A stretch of 64,000 nucleotides of DNA from a virus. The translations under genes and the position numbers were made by a program. Below, piece after piece: positions 56,860 to 63,549 of this stretch; the stretch's first letter is position 1, and the number at the start of each line of letters is the position of its first letter. The notes under the pieces are model-generated. The model had not been told where the DNA came from, made no database searches, and saw only the letters and a program-made list of their open reading frames with translations. The DNA lies in the IMG/VR virus record IMGVR_UViG_3300037234_000438, positions 15,212 to 79,211 of that record; one strand, 5' to 3'.

Positions 56860-57255
56860 GTGAGTAATTCGATAAAATTACGGGCGCATGACTTAATGAA
56901 CTTCGAGCTTACTGAAGAATACGAGAGCGCGAGTCGCATCTCTTTTGGTGGCGTAGTTGAGGATATCCCCATTTCAAGAACGCAAAAGGTCTCGTTTGAG
57001 ATCGAGTCTTCCTCGTTTCCCAATCTTGACATGAGCCGTTATCTCGAGATAGATGTTTACGGGAAAAGGCTCAAAGTCTTAATTACTGAGAGGCGAATAC
57101 ACCAGGTTTCTCTAACGCATTCAATCGCTTCCTATGAGGGCGTGGTAGTCGAAGAGCCTGAGCCGGAAGAGTCTGAGCTTGAATCAGCAGTAAGGGCCGC
57201 TACGAGTACATGCCCTACGTGCAATAGGCCAATGGGGGATGATGATGTCAATTAG
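56860..57255 (+). CDS. small protein with tail-tube-like segment + tag B
   Basis: ESELESAVRAAT; AGGAGG RBS. Confidence 0.65.
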   Translation: MSNSIKLRAHDLMNFELTEEYESASRISFGGVVEDIPISRTQKVSFEIESSSFPNLDMSRYLEIDVYGKRLKVLITERRIHQVSLTHSIASYEGVVVEEPEPEESELESAVRAATSTCPTCNRPMGDDDVN

Positions 57256-57547
57256 TGGGCCAAGAGGCAGAATAAGGCGATTAGCCACTTATTACAAGGT
57301 AGACTTGGGCGATGTGGTGAAGATCTACAACAAAACTAAGCATGACTTCGATGAGACTCGAGGGATATTTAAAGAGGCTGCCGAGTTGAGCATCTCTCCT
57401 GAAGACGTGATGATTGCGAGGGAAGTTGCGGAGATGCTTGAGGGCAAAGATGAAATTAACGAGGGCGGAGCAGTGACCTTTCACATCAACTCAAAGGGTG
57501 GATATGTTCCTAGCGCCAATACTTGGCAAGATTATTTAAAGGTGTAA
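57239..57547 (+). CDS. small protein with tag A + protease-like HINSKGG peptide
   Basis: EVAEMLEG; VTFHINSKGGYV. Confidence 0.65.
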   Translation: MMMSISGPRGRIRRLATYYKVDLGDVVKIYNKTKHDFDETRGIFKEAAELSISPEDVMIAREVAEMLEGKDEINEGGAVTFHINSKGGYVPSANTWQDYLKV

Positions 57548-57572
57548 TTGATAAGAGCTTGGGAGAACAATA

Positions 57573-58016
57573 ATGTCCGACTATAGGCCGGCAACCGGCG
57601 AGCACTTGGATGTGCTGAGAGAAATGAAAGAAATCAATGATAAACTCAACGAGCTCTCCCGTGACTACGCGTGGTTTCATATACCAAGCATCGAGGTTGA
57701 CCACTCCATCGAAGGCGTCCGATGTAATGGACGCGAGCGGTTAAGAACTGCTATCGATGTTTATGAGCGGTATACCGAAATGGAAAAGACCTTTCTGGAT
57801 TTTATCGACAGGATAGAGAAGTCTATAAAGCTCGTGAAAAGAGGTCGAAATCTCTTCGAGGCATCTTTTGAGATTTGTGAATCATGTCGCGGGAATAAAG
57901 GTGAAAGAGAAACAAGCCGACATTGGGCGGACTGTTCTCATTGTTCTGGTAATGGATTTATTGATCGCGACCTATCGATGATCGAAAAGGCCGTGATGCT
58001 TGCCGAAGATGTCTGA
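57573..58016 (+). CDS. protein with DnaJ-type CxxCxGxG zinc finger + tag B variant
   Basis: CESCRGNKG, CSHCSGNG; SMIEKAVMLA. Confidence 0.65.
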   Translation: MSDYRPATGEHLDVLREMKEINDKLNELSRDYAWFHIPSIEVDHSIEGVRCNGRERLRTAIDVYERYTEMEKTFLDFIDRIEKSIKLVKRGRNLFEASFEICESCRGNKGERETSRHWADCSHCSGNGFIDRDLSMIEKAVMLAEDV

Positions 58017-58320
58017 TAAGGAGCCCATATGCCCCACAGAAGCCAAGGTGATTCTGAGTAATGAGGTGGGTGGCGAGAGAATCAGATCTATTAAATTCTC
58101 CGCCTCGATTAGGCATGACAACCCCATAGAGAACTTACAGCCAGAAAGCGTGATCAATGTGCAACTACACGAATATATTTTTGAGACTGTGATTAACAAG
58201 ATTCACCTGAACTATAACACTCCATCCGAGATAGAAATTGACGTAATTGGCACAGTGACAGGAATCAAGCATATCAACGAATCAGAACTCGAAGCAGCCG
58301 TGAGGAAAGCCGTTGACTGA
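58009..58320 (+). CDS. beta-rich small protein + tag B
   Basis: ESELEAAVRKAV. Confidence 0.65.
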   Translation: MSDKEPICPTEAKVILSNEVGGERIRSIKFSASIRHDNPIENLQPESVINVQLHEYIFETVINKIHLNYNTPSEIEIDVIGTVTGIKHINESELEAAVRKAVD

Positions 58321-58462
58321 CGCAAAGAAAGTAGCAGCTATTCTCGCTGGAGATGAGATGTGCGAGTTATGCGGGAAATATTTTCCGGCTAAAGACAAAG
58401 CCATCCTCCGCATATTTGGGAAAAACATGTGTTATAACTGCTTTAAGCTGGTCCACATTTAA
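58313..58462 (+). CDS. 49-aa zinc-finger protein with tag-A-like N-terminus (not in ORF track)
   Basis: GAGG + TTG; KKVAAILAGDEMCELC...CYNC. Confidence 0.6.
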   Translation: MTDAKKVAAILAGDEMCELCGKYFPAKDKAILRIFGKNMCYNCFKLVHI

Positions 58463-58463
58463 G

Positions 58464-58880
58464 ATGAACGAGAAATCATGGCCTGACATTAAGTTTAAAA
58501 CCATCGCGATGGTAGCCGACTACTCATTAGCCGAGAAACATAATATTGCCCTCGATTCAGCCATTAGTGTCCGTGAAGCCATAAGCAATAACGGCCTAAG
58601 GTGCACGAGCGATGAGTTGGTGGAATACATGTTCCGGAATAATGTTGAGCTGGAGGAGGCCGTAGAGGGCTTTAAAGTTGCGGACGAGCTTAGTGGGAGG
58701 AGTGAGCCGTATCTGTGCGACGATGGTAGTTGCAGGTGCGGCAGCAAGAATGACACCTCCACAGTTACATATCATCCACGGAAGCACTGCCCTAGATGCC
58801 ACAAGGTTTTTACTCCATGGCAGAGAGGGGCTAATTGGAGCCCCGCTTGTATAAGCTGCGAGATTTTAACGAGGGAATAA
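58464..58880 (+). CDS. tag A + Cys-rich protein
   Basis: LEEAVEGFKVADELSG; paralogue of 63222-63549. Confidence 0.7.
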   Translation: MNEKSWPDIKFKTIAMVADYSLAEKHNIALDSAISVREAISNNGLRCTSDELVEYMFRNNVELEEAVEGFKVADELSGRSEPYLCDDGSCRCGSKNDTSTVTYHPRKHCPRCHKVFTPWQRGANWSPACISCEILTRE

Positions 58881-61147: not shown

Positions 61148-61177
61148 AAAAGAATCCCAATTAAGGAGTAAATAGCG

Positions 61178-62220
61178 ATGGATGGTAGCGCATTAATAAA
61201 GGACGTCAAGAAGGCATGGAAGACAGCAAAAAAGAAGGACCTGGATTGCTACGATGAGGTTGAGAGGGTAATTGAAGCTGCGGCCTTGTCTGATTACCAA
61301 AGAGGATATTTCAAGGCCAAGCTGGAAGAAATTGGCAACTCCCTCTCCAGCGAGCAGGAAGATTGGTTGTGGGAGATCGAGGCGGTATTGAAAGGATTTG
61401 ATAACGATTAAATGGAGAACGCGATGACAGTTTTAACCGAAGAACAGCAAGAAGAGATTGTAAGTATGGAACGGGAAAAACATCGGCTGTGGAAGGAAGA
61501 TATGCTGGAGGCCAAGAGATTTCGGCATGCAGATATGAGACTGCGAATAACAATGACCGCTCTTCTGGCAGTTGAATTAGTCGTTGTCATTGGATGGTTG
61601 GTGGCGTGGGTGAAGGTTAGCATTTAACGAGGAGACGTTATGGCCGAGAAAGAAATAGATAAGTTTTTAACTGAGGCAATGGGAGAATGTTGGCATGAGC
61701 GGATAGAGGCTGATATTGGGGAGTTCATGAACCCTGATATCCGGAGTTGGTCGTGTAGGTGCGACATTAAAAATACAATGGTTTGGCCTGATTATTGTCG
61801 GCATTTTAGAAACAATGACTTCTCCACATGGGAAGGTTTTGGCAAGCTTTTTTCTTGGAGTAAAAAAGAAAGATGGTGGATTGACTTTATACTGTCTCAG
61901 AGAAGGCCAGGAGTTTCTGCTTTTTGTGAGATGCTGGACCCTGAAAGATTCGCCAAGGCTGTTTATGAGTTTTTGAAGGAGAGAGGGTCATGAAAACAAA
62001 ATGGATCAAGGATGTTCTAGTGAGCACAAGTGTGTGTGGTGCGTGCTATATGATTCCTTATTTTTCAGCAATGGCCATTCGTATTTGGACCGAGGGAGAA
62101 GTGGCTCCATTGGCGCTACTTATGTTTTGGGGAGGAATGGCGTACAGCGGCTATCTCACTCGGAGAGAAAGGAAGGTGGTGGCAAATAAGATAAAAGACA
62201 TTTTTGGCAAACTGAACTGA
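61178..62220 (+). CDS. four small genes (61178-61411, 61412-61627 TM, 61640-61993, 61990-62220 TM)
   Basis: ORF track; RBSs. Confidence 0.6.
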
Positions 62221-62247
62221 ATGCTTGTTATTTAATGGGAGAAATTT

Positions 62248-62994
62248 ATGCCACACTTTAAGACAAGAACATTTTCAACTTATACGGAAATGGGCCACGT
62301 AAGCGAGAAGATCAGTATAAAGGTAAGCGCAGGTGGAGAGTTTTACTGTTACCTGCCTGAAGATTACCTGCCAGCCGTCAAGGATGTCTTTAAGCAAAAC
62401 TGGAAAAAGGACGGCAAGATAAGAGTTTATGCAGACACGCTCGCGGAGCTGGAAACTCGCATCGAAAAAACCATAAGGATAAATGCTGAACCAGAAGTCT
62501 TTGAAGAACCGGTAATTAGATACAACATAGAATCGCACGTTTCATTTGCAGAAGACAGCGATGGTAACGTTTTCCCCAATACTGGATTTCCTGATACCAA
62601 ATGGAACGCCAAGGGTGACAGGGAGTTGTATGGAAACCATGACTCTGCGAAACCTTGCCGTGGCGGATATAGTTTAAGGGTTGGCGCCCAAGCCATGATG
62701 AAGAAGACTCTTGTGTATGGCGAGACGAAGAGAGTGAAGTATAGCTTTTACTATAAAGACGGCAGCCACCACGATCACGACAATCCGGCAGAATTGTTAA
62801 ATAGCTGGAGTTCCTTCTCTCTACCCGACAATGCCAAGGAAATCCCATACACAGACGAGGCCGCTTTATTTTTCCACAATCTTCTTTTAGGCATGGCGCA
62901 ATTGTCCAAGAAAATACAGGAGCAGACGTTTGGCCAGGAAAAACTATTGGAACTGATTGCAAAAGGACATAAGTTGTTGCCGGAGAAAACTTAA
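62248..62994 (+). CDS. hypothetical protein
   Basis: 248-aa ORF with GGGAG RBS. Confidence 0.7.
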   Translation: MPHFKTRTFSTYTEMGHVSEKISIKVSAGGEFYCYLPEDYLPAVKDVFKQNWKKDGKIRVYADTLAELETRIEKTIRINAEPEVFEEPVIRYNIESHVSFAEDSDGNVFPNTGFPDTKWNAKGDRELYGNHDSAKPCRGGYSLRVGAQAMMKKTLVYGETKRVKYSFYYKDGSHHDHDNPAELLNSWSSFSLPDNAKEIPYTDEAALFFHNLLLGMAQLSKKIQEQTFGQEKLLELIAKGHKLLPEKT

Positions 62995-63012
62995 TAAGCA
63001 GGGGGGGAAGAT

Positions 63013-63222
63013 ATGGGATATAAAGGAATGTGTAGCGAATGTACGCTGGCCGTGACAAAGAAGGACGATCCCAAAAAACACAAGCTGTGCTTGAAGTATG
63101 GAAGTACGTGTATGAGCGTTGCTAGAAATTGCCATGGTCCCGCGAATGGAATATTGAAGGAAGATTGGAAAGACTACATTTCTCATGCAGCCAGAAGCAA
63201 GTACGAGCCAGTCTGTAAATAA
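63013..63222 (+). CDS. Cys-rich small protein
   Basis: ORF track; RBS. Confidence 0.6.
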   Translation: MGYKGMCSECTLAVTKKDDPKKHKLCLKYGSTCMSVARNCHGPANGILKEDWKDYISHAARSKYEPVCK

Positions 63223-63549
63223 TGCCATACTCTAAAGCACAAAAGCTAGAAGCGAGGACCGCGATATCACTCAGGGGGCTTAAGATGTACGCCATCTGAG
63301 CTATTGAGATGCGCCAGGTCCAGCAATATCTCTACCACCGAAGCGGCAGAGGCCATGGAAGTATCTGTGGCTCTGTCTGGAGACAAGAAGCCGTATAAGT
63401 GTGGAGAGGAGGACTGTGCCTGTATGTCAGCAGTGCTCGCTAGACATTGTCCTGGTTGTGACAAACTTTTCCCTATTTTGTTCGGGGAAGACCATTGCTT
63501 TAGGTGTGACTCAAACAATGGCCGCCAGCATGCCAAATCCTCAATCTGA
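63222..63549 (+). pseudogene. tag A paralogue of 58464 split by +1 frameshift at G5 (63274-63278)
   Basis: Removing one G gives AISLRGLRCTPSEL, matching AISNNGLRCTSDEL. Confidence 0.65.

What the first reader, a model, noticed from the sequence alone, without database searches (positions are those of the whole stretch)
57239..63549. Tag A: second mobile helical module ending (E/K)(V/I)AxxL(E/S)G
SEEN: ISPEDVMIAREVAEMLEG (57239), VELEEAVEGFKVADELSG (58464), LTEEDGIAVLSVADTLEG (58882), ISITEAVGCFEIAEVLEG (60767), ISTTEAAEAMEVSVALSG (63304) and DERLTAYEVAEALEG-stop (3403). Weaker cases are KKVAAILAG (58313) and WEIEAVLKG (61178). It occurs N-terminally, internally and C-terminally, next to unrelated cargo domains. 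INFERENCE: a shuffled interaction module. The flanking AISNNGLR weakly recalls the tape-measure motif VLSNMGIR.
Basis: partly seen in the sequence, partly recalled or inferred. Interest (0 to 1): 0.72.

Follow-up and report, generated by a model that had tools for sequence, protein, structure and literature searches.

The report
Small phage helix–zinc-ribbon protein family
Five small genes at the variable end of an uncultured marine-sediment phage share a 33-residue acidic two-helix segment; it is mostly the inherited front part of a locally duplicated family of tiny zinc-binding proteins, one copy is instead joined to a duplicate of the tail-fibre tip, and its function is untested, so this is a fairly ordinary phage feature.

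Summary
The motif is real, but it is not a free 8-residue tag. It is the end of a 33-residue acidic helix-turn-helix segment shared by five small + strand genes: 57245, 58464, 58882, 60767 and the open frame 63250.

Leave-one-out profiles and a BLAST network link all five. The C-terminal case (3403) and WEIEAVLKG (61178) are not above background.

The weak case KKVAAILAG (58313) proved to be the archetype. A syntenic 82-kb relative carries seven tandem small genes at the same genome end, each an acidic helix followed by a CxxC zinc ribbon. They are homologous to the window's family (hhalign E about 2e-6).

So tag plus zinc ribbon is mostly one inherited unit, multiplied by local duplication. 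Shuffling is shown only for 58882, which is the hairpin plus a copy of the putative tail-fibre tip (E 5e-12). 57245, which lacks the ribbon, may be a second case.

No Pfam, PHROG or NCBIfam family matches. A profile search of 1.84 billion proteins found one outside relative. Function is unknown. My best guess is a folded N-terminal scaffold or partner-binding domain of small accessory proteins.

The scan has noted similar zinc-ribbon paralogue arrays in other phage genomes, but not this family.

The parts
57245..57547 (+). Gene 'A57' (100 aa). Hairpin at residues 35-67 (57347-57445), then LEGKDE and a 33-residue Cys-free tail. Weakest core member.
   Evidence: The identical protein is called as a gene in public collections. 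The AF2 model is uninformative.
58313..58462 (+). 49-aa ORF (TTG start). N-terminal helix MTDAKKVAAILAG followed directly by a CxxC...CxxC zinc ribbon. This is the minimal 'archetype' of the family.
   Evidence: BLAST to the 63250 frame, E 0.006. hhalign to the seven-member family of the related phage: probability 90%, E 1.5e-6. Top hit of that family's HMM in this genome, iE 1.4e-4.
58464..58880 (+). Gene 'A58a' (138 aa). Four-helix N-terminal domain (residues 9-77) whose last two helices are the hairpin (residues 46-78, 58599-58697). It is followed by PYLC..C.C...CPRC...CISC (8 Cys).
   Evidence: Leave-one-out E 1.5e-4. Paralogue of 63250, E about 1e-10 over 75 aa. AF2 pLDDT 79-93 for residues 11-70, with helices 14-26, 30-43, 49-58 and 63-77.
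58882..59262 (+). Gene 'A58b' (126 aa). Hairpin at residues 1-33 (58882-58980), linker KDD, then a domain homologous to the putative tail-fibre tip (58990-59253).
   Evidence: BLAST to the 60767 gene, E about 1e-3. Residues 37-124 match fibre residues 257-359 at 34% identity, E 5e-12, with the same C-terminal NRGW(V/I)TITY.
60767..61147 (+). Gene 'A60' (126 aa from ATG 60767). Hairpin at residues 27-59 (60845-60943), then ERRWKCDDDC and a Cys-containing tail. Hub of the similarity network.
   Evidence: Leave-one-out E 3e-8. BLAST links to all other members. The 126-aa form is the one called in public collections.
63250..63549 (+). Open frame 'A63' (99 codons). Hairpin at 63283-63381, then PYKC..C.C...CPGC...CFRC. 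There is no canonical start upstream of TTG 63304, which lies inside helix 1. It may be a truncated or decaying copy.
   Evidence: It was absent from the hits of the profile search although it is a row of the query, so it was probably not called as a gene.
16115..16423 (-). C-terminal tip (residues 257-359) of the 357-aa putative tail fibre (gene 16106-17179). It is the paralogue of the C-terminal part of gene 58882.
   Evidence: 'Tail fibre' is inferred from position, directly downstream of the tape-measure, hub-like and 1124-aa fn3 tail proteins. No Pfam or PHROG hit.
3769..3822 (+). C-terminal helix ATIDERLTAYEVAEALEG-stop of the 140-aa gene 3403-3825. It is a look-alike and is not shown to belong to the family.
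   Evidence: 8-11 bits, E 0.02-0.4, within the decoy range. The orthologue in the related phage ends ...IQERWIAHLVAEKMMESQ, so the helix is inherited with that protein.

Best explanation
'Tag A' is the conserved N-terminal helical part of a lineage-specific family of small phage accessory proteins. The family has multiplied by local duplication in the variable right-hand end of this roughly 80-kb phage genome.

The ancestral unit is an acidic helix ending in (V/I)A..(L/M).G, followed at once by a CxxC...CxxC zinc ribbon. This form is seen in the 49-aa ORF 58313 and in seven tandem genes of the syntenic relative.

In this phage three members (58464, 60767, 63250) gained a preceding helix, which gives the 33-residue hairpin. 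Two members kept the hairpin but lost the ribbon. In one of them (58882) the ribbon is replaced by a copy of the tail-fibre tip.

The invariant residues are hydrophobic core positions and the closing Leu-x-Gly helix cap. Those are the residues of a fold, not of a linear peptide signal.

Inferred, not shown: the hairpin is a small acidic scaffold or partner-contact domain (net charge -6 to -8). It holds a variable C-terminal binding module, and the proteins act as small binders of host or phage macromolecules during infection.
For: Family and paralogy:
- BLAST 58464-63250, E about 1e-10 over 75 aa covering hairpin plus ribbon. 60767 links to the others at about 1e-3.
- Leave-one-out HMMs recover three members.

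The same unit in the relative:
- Seven tandem ORFs lie at the same genome end of IMGVR_UViG_3300037587_000923.
- hhalign of their alignment against the window family gives probability 88.6%, E 2.7e-6. Against ORF 58313 it gives 90%, E 1.5e-6.
- Reciprocal HMM searches each find the other array first.

Outside relative: P0008 has the same hairpin-like segment plus PYLC..C.CG..KKHCPxC (E 7e-4 against 1.84 billion proteins).

Protein-level conservation: synonymous codons are randomised and there is no DNA repeat.

Fold element: in the AF2 model of 58464 the two tag helices are the last two of a confident four-helix stretch.

Real swap: the C-terminus of 58882 is homologous to the fibre tip.

Acidity.
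Against: - Nothing tested here bears on function.
- 57245 and 58882 are linked only by weak scores (E 0.04 and about 1e-3 in a genome-sized database).
- The A58a model was made from a single sequence. Only secondary structure and pLDDT were returned, so packing of the helices is inferred.
- Two carriers lack the ribbon, so some modular reuse is real.
- Homology between the two phages' arrays rests on short profiles in which the CxxC knuckle contributes much of the score.
Confidence: 0.6

Rival explanations
1. Portable docking tag. The hairpin is an autonomous interaction module that brings unrelated cargo to one shared partner. The cargo would be a zinc ribbon, a fibre-tip copy or a short peptide. 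The partner would be the virion during assembly or a host hub protein.
For: - It has the same position in all five members: the end of the N-terminal part, then Gly and a charged linker.
- At least three kinds of C-terminal part follow it, one of them a proven fibre-tip copy.
- Acidic surface residues are conserved.
Against: - Most carriers are paralogues with helix plus ribbon as one inherited unit.
- No partner is known.
- In 58464 the helices appear to belong to a larger helical domain.
- The C-terminal instances are not significant.
Confidence: 0.2
2. TraR/DksA-like factors. An acidic N-terminal helix plus a C4 zinc finger in a 50-140-aa phage protein could bind the secondary channel of RNA polymerase, as TraR and the lambda TraR-like protein do.
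For: Resemblance by eye and from memory only. The N-termini MTDDEKIAEE and MTDAKKVAA are followed by C-E-x-C-G...F-P...C-x-x-C. That architecture and size recall TraR.
Against: - No match to the DksA/TraR zinc-finger profile or any TraR model in Pfam or NCBIfam for ten members. Only generic zinc-ribbon hits below the cut-offs were found.
- Seven to eight copies per genome, and members without any ribbon, do not fit a single-target channel binder.
Confidence: 0.07
3. Chance or compositional convergence. Acidic amphipathic helices ending in Leu-x-Gly are common, and the resemblance is not homology.
For: - The 18-residue helix alone scores only 7-14 bits in leave-one-out tests, and decoys reach about 10 bits.
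- The extra 'members' (3403, and the C-termini of three larger proteins upstream of the window) fall in that range.
Against: - 33-residue leave-one-out E-values go down to 3e-8.
- A 75-residue paralogue pair scores E 1e-10.
- All five members cluster within 6.3 kb on one strand.
- The strict motif occurs 4 times against 0.05 expected.

Convergence remains likely for the C-terminal look-alikes only.
Confidence: 0.05
4. DNA-level element. The shared peptide would be a by-product of a repeated regulatory or recombination sequence, such as a cassette boundary or ribosome-binding site.
For: - The neighbouring 'tag B' is detectable as a 45-nt DNA repeat family that overlaps the next gene's ribosome-binding site and start.
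- LEG codons (CTT GAG GGN) are purine-rich.
Against: - No DNA repeat family covers tag A.
- Pairwise nucleotide identity is 35-51%.
- Codon identity at identical residues equals the chance expectation.
- No start codon of a real ORF follows the internal copies.
Confidence: 0.03

Closest known systems
Lineage-specific expansions of small zinc-ribbon proteins in phages, e.g. about 35 ZnR copies in Bacillus phage G (Iyer et al. 2021, Viruses 13:63, PMC7824862; read)
   Same: Several strongly diverged paralogues of a tiny CxxC...CxxC protein are clustered in one phage genome. They are specific to a narrow lineage and their function is untested. That paper suggests transcription factors or structural DNA-binding proteins.
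   Different: - The scale is much smaller: 4-6 copies here and 7 in the relative, in roughly 80-kb phages rather than a jumbo phage.
- The conserved part is an acidic N-terminal helix or hairpin rather than the ribbon.
- Two members have lost the ribbon, and one carries a fibre-tip copy.
- No sequence relation to the phage G family was found or tested.
Phage receptor-binding proteins with a conserved N-terminal anchor and exchangeable C-terminal tip (general knowledge of tail fibre and tailspike modularity)
   Same: Gene 58882 has a short conserved N-terminal part followed by a domain homologous to the tip of the phage's own putative fibre.
   Different: - The N-terminal part is not related to the fibre's own N-terminus.
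- The gene lies among non-structural + strand genes.
- Its paralogues carry zinc ribbons, not fibre domains.
- Attachment to the virion is untested.
TraR/DksA family (acidic helix plus C4 zinc finger, binds RNA polymerase)
   Same: Size, an acidic N-terminal helix, and a following four-cysteine finger with a C-E-x-C-G...P...C-x-x-C pattern (by eye).
   Different: No profile match. The helix is shorter, there are many copies per genome, and some members lack the finger.
Small helical-hairpin or three-helix modules (UBA-like domains, 33-35-residue TPR/PPR-like or designed helical-repeat units)
   Same: - Length and helix-turn-helix pattern.
- Fold search of the 58464 model gives designed helical toroids (Z 5.6-5.7) and several UBA domains (Z 4-5).
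- A PDB profile search hits designer PPR repeats only by summing 4-bit repeat matches.
   Different: All scores are within the background for helical proteins, as the tool itself notes. No sequence family match. Nothing links it to ubiquitin or RNA binding.

Membership tests
Lineage-specific expansion of small zinc-ribbon phage proteins (kind, not a named family) | Several mutually homologous copies in one genome | tested here: met
   BLAST and leave-one-out HMMs. The related phage has seven copies.
Lineage-specific expansion of small zinc-ribbon phage proteins (kind, not a named family) | Copies clustered or tandem on one strand | tested here: met
   All lie within 57245-63549 on the + strand. 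In the relative they lie within 2.6 kb at the syntenic end.
Lineage-specific expansion of small zinc-ribbon phage proteins (kind, not a named family) | CxxC...CxxC zinc ribbon in every copy | tested here: not met
   Present in 58313, 58464 and 63250. Irregular in 60767. Absent in 57245 and 58882. Metal binding itself is not testable here.
Bacillus phage G ZnR family (Iyer et al. 2021) | Sequence homology to that family | not tested
   No phage G sequence was fetched. tblastn of 58464 and 58882 against 50,697 phage records gave no match.
DksA/TraR C4 zinc-finger family (Pfam zf-dskA_traR) | Match to the family profile | tested here: not met
   No hit in Pfam or NCBIfam for ten members at E up to 0.1-1. 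Only generic ribbon families appear, all below their cut-offs.
Helix-turn-helix DNA-binding domains | Profile match, and a basic or polar recognition helix | tested here: not met
   No HTH family in Pfam. Net charge of the 33 residues is -6 to -8 in four of the five members.
UBA-like three-helix domains | Fold match clearly above helical background | tested here: inconclusive
   UBA chains reach Z 4-5 against the 58464 model. The tool states that Z below about 13 is uninformative for helical bundles.
Tape-measure protein core (PhageMin_Tail) | Alignable similarity to this phage's tape-measure protein around VLSNMGIR | tested here: not met
   The motif exists in the 1573-aa tape-measure protein. 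BLAST of 58464 against all frames gives no tape-measure hit at E up to 5. AISNNGLR against VLSNMGIR is 5 of 8.
Terminal targeting or cargo-loading peptides (e.g. T4 capsid-targeting sequence, encapsulin cargo peptides) | A short terminal peptide sufficient to load unrelated cargo into a shell | not testable with these tools
   This needs virion proteomics or fusion experiments. Against it: the segment is internal in three of the five members and appears to be part of a folded domain.

The most novel reading that the evidence does not exclude
The acidic hairpin is a portable handle that couples different small binding modules to one shared partner. One of those modules is a free-standing copy of the phage's own fibre tip. 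The partner could be the assembling virion or a host hub protein. This variable genome end would then be a kit of interchangeable 'handle plus warhead' proteins, assembled partly from pieces of the phage's own structural genes.
Probability: 0.15. Interest if true: 0.6.

Novelty: new member of a known kind. Interest (0 to 1): 0.3.

Why it matters
This result turns an apparent 'mobile peptide tag' into something more ordinary and more testable. It is an undescribed family of small helix-plus-zinc-ribbon phage proteins that duplicates locally and now and then exchanges its C-terminal part.

The one clear exchange is a soluble copy of the fibre tip behind the family's N-terminal hairpin. It is a neat natural example of how variable phage genome ends build new small proteins from the phage's own structural genes. 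It is also the member most worth expressing. The family adds to the growing list of expanded small zinc-protein families in phages whose targets are unknown.

Tried and rejected
- Complex prediction of the 37-residue hairpin as two copies: no verdict (score 0.02, mark 0.42). This is not evidence either way.
- AF2 of the 57245 protein: mean pLDDT 48, uninformative.
- Fold searches of the 58464 model:
  - Nothing above helical background in the 48,161 PDB representatives.
  - No BFVD match with E at or below 0.001.
- ESM Atlas on the hairpin of 60767: no usable hit.
- PDB profile search: only artefactual summed matches to designer PPR and toroid repeats.
- The search for homologous proteins:
  - 60767 alone and the four-row alignment returned only self hits and P0008.
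  - The 341-aa upstream protein gave the relative that led to G001.
- Context of P0008: not retrievable. It lies on a 1326-bp contig, and there were no hits in the viral, metagenome or genome contig scans.
- No DNA or tblastn match in 50,697 phage records.
- No near-identical contig was found by exact pattern.
- TerL-based searches found only G001 again.
- Four more distant relatives, fetched through the topoisomerase-like anchor gene, have no members.
- Sequencing runs: one DNA holder (marine sediment metagenome, probably the source) and no RNA holder listed.
- The tag B HMM does not detect tag A members, and the reverse also holds, so I did not merge the two tags.
- A possible hairpin in G001 5327-5797 scored 0.8 bits and was dropped.
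- An SD-site explanation for LEG was considered and rejected. No real ORF starts after the internal copies.

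
Full report
**Setting.** The window is bases 15212-79211 of a single 79,211-bp virus contig from a marine sediment metagenome.
- Structural genes lie on the minus strand: tape measure, hub-like protein, 1124-aa fn3 tail protein, portal.
- The region from about 36 kb to the end is a + strand block with recombination and replication genes, TerL and a topoisomerase-like protein (54346-55245, phrog_6247).
- After that comes a run of small genes without family matches. The finding lies in this last run.

- All quoted peptides exist.
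- The eight-residue motif is the end of a longer similarity. An ungapped 33-residue alignment holds for five genes: helix 1 (x-E-L-x-E-Y), a turn (n-I-S), and helix 2 (x-E-A-x-x-x-x-x-V-A-E-x-L-E-G).
- Leave-one-out HMMs against all six-frame peptides recover 60767 (E 3e-8), 58464 (1.5e-4) and 63250 (1.6e-3). They do not clearly recover 58882 (0.4) or 57245.
- With the 18-residue helix alone, 57245 is the best left-out hit (E 0.02).
- BLAST gives a connected network. 58464-63250 scores E about 1e-10 over 75 residues. 60767 links to 58464, 63250 and 58882 at about 1e-3, and to 57245 at 0.04.
- The strict motif occurs 4 times against 0.05 expected. That pattern was chosen after seeing the data.
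- Conservation is at protein level. Nucleotide identity is 35-51%, codons at identical residues agree no more often than chance (35 against 31.7), and no DNA repeat covers the segment.
- The segment is strongly acidic, with net charge -6 to -8 in four of the five members.

**What is not supported.**
- The C-terminal case (3403-3825) is always the best non-member, but at 8-11 bits, which reversed and shuffled decoys also reach.
- Its orthologue in the related phage ends in a similar helix (…IQERWIAHLVAEKMMESQ), so the helix belongs to that protein by descent.
- Three larger proteins upstream of the window also end in (V/I)A..L..G or …LAA, and their orthologues keep comparable helices. I treat these as look-alikes.
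- WEIEAVLKG (61178) is never detected.
- The tape-measure resemblance is a 5-of-8 match without any alignment.

**The turn in the story.** The 341-aa protein upstream of the window has a 44%-identical orthologue on an 82,045-bp IMG/VR contig.
- That genome (G001) is syntenic with ours over most genes, but homology stops at window position about 56,250. None of the five genes has an orthologue there.
- At the same genome end, G001 has its own array: seven tandem ORFs of 51-106 aa. Each begins M-T-D-D-E-x-I-A-(D/E)-x-V-x-x-x-M-x-G and continues at once into CxxC…F.P…CxxC.
- Profile-profile comparison of that family with the window's family aligns their N-terminal helix to tag A's second helix, and their CxxC.K.F.P knuckle to CPRCHKVFTP (probability 88.6%, E 2.7e-6).
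- The G001 family HMM finds that ORF first in our genome (iE 1.4e-4). Our family HMM finds five of the seven G001 genes among its six best hits.
- A profile search of 1.84 billion representative proteins found, apart from our own genes, one protein (P0008, 103 aa, on a 1326-bp contig). It has the same hairpin-like segment followed by PYLC..C.CG…KKHCPQC (E 7e-4).

**What it is.** An acidic helix plus a zinc ribbon is one inherited unit, multiplied locally in both phages.
- In this phage some copies carry an extra preceding helix, which gives the 33-residue hairpin. 58464 carries two further helices.
- AF2 places the tag helices (49-58 and 63-77) as the last two of a confident four-helix stretch, pLDDT 79-93.
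- The residues that never change (Leu-x-Gly at the helix end and the hydrophobic positions) are those of a fold. Whether the helices pack as one bundle is inferred, because only secondary structure and confidence were returned.

**How much shuffling is there?** Some.
- 58882 consists of the hairpin (residues 1-33), a KDD linker and a domain that is 34% identical to the last 100 residues of the 357-aa putative tail fibre (E 5e-12). The shared end is NRGW(V/I)TITY.
The 'fibre' label rests on gene position only.
- 57245 keeps the hairpin and a similar LEGKD linker but has a short Cys-free tail.

**Function.** Nothing here tests it.
- No Pfam, PHROG or NCBIfam family matches any member. Only generic zinc-ribbon models appear, below their cut-offs.
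- The hairpin is too acidic to be a DNA-binding helix-turn-helix.
- By eye, the minimal members recall TraR/DksA (acidic N-terminal helix plus C4 finger). No profile supports this, and the copy number argues against it.
- My working model is that of other expanded small zinc-protein families in phages (Iyer et al. 2021, PMC7824862). These would be small binders of host or phage macromolecules. The hairpin would be a constant scaffold or contact surface, and the C-terminal part would give specificity.
- A self-association test of the hairpin gave no verdict.

**Novelty and score.**
- The family itself is undescribed, and it is rare in what the searches could reach.
- The kind of thing is known: a lineage-specific, locally duplicated family of tiny zinc-binding phage proteins with occasional domain exchange. 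This scan has met it repeatedly in other phage genomes.
- The fibre-tip fusion is the only element a specialist might find curious.
- I score interest at 0.3.

Noticed in passing
window 56680-56859 (+) vs portal gene 35467-37086 (-): The 59-aa ORF shares 50% identity over 32 residues with portal residues 283-314 (E 7e-5 in a genome-sized database). This is a second small gene in the region that contains a piece of a structural gene, as note e1-6098513 said.
   Followed up: partly
window 56479-56523, 56637-56681, 57163-57207, 58273-58317: 'Tag B' (SELExAVRxAT) is detectable as a 45-nt DNA repeat family (60-76% identity). Its AGG/GAG codons overlap the ribosome-binding site and start codon of the next gene. 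Unlike tag A, it may therefore be partly a junction-sequence effect.
   Followed up: partly
window 56245-56532 and 56860-57255: These two tag-B genes are paralogues over 74 residues (28% identity, E 3e-4), so tag B carriers are not all unrelated either.
   Followed up: no
L005 8313-9257, 9259-10284, 13065-14051 (genome bases upstream of the window) and window 3403-3825: Four larger proteins, among them the reverse transcriptase, end in an acidic helix: ...VAETLGG, ...VANMLAA, ...IAKELSGG, ...VAEALEG. The orthologues in the related phage keep similar C-terminal helices. No non-coding frame of 60 aa or more ends this way.
   Followed up: partly
window 63190-63310: The 63250 frame has no ATG, GTG or TTG before TTG 63304, which lies inside helix 1. 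It is in frame with the upstream Cys-rich ORF 63013-63222 but is separated from it by two stop codons (TAA, TAG). It may be a decaying copy.
   Followed up: partly
L010 1282-1797 (related phage G001, inside its zinc-ribbon array): A 171-aa ORF with an NPPYGP motif, typical of DNA adenine methyltransferases, sits between the small zinc-ribbon genes. This hints that the variable end holds anti-restriction-type functions.
   Followed up: no
window 57573-58016: This 147-aa tag-B protein contains two CxxCxGxG motifs (CESCRGNKG, CSHCSGNGF), like the DnaJ-type zinc finger.
   Followed up: no
L009 82-315 and 2410-2643 (related phage G001): Two 77-aa ORFs 2.3 kb apart are 100% identical, which indicates a recent duplication or a repeat in that genome.
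   Followed up: no
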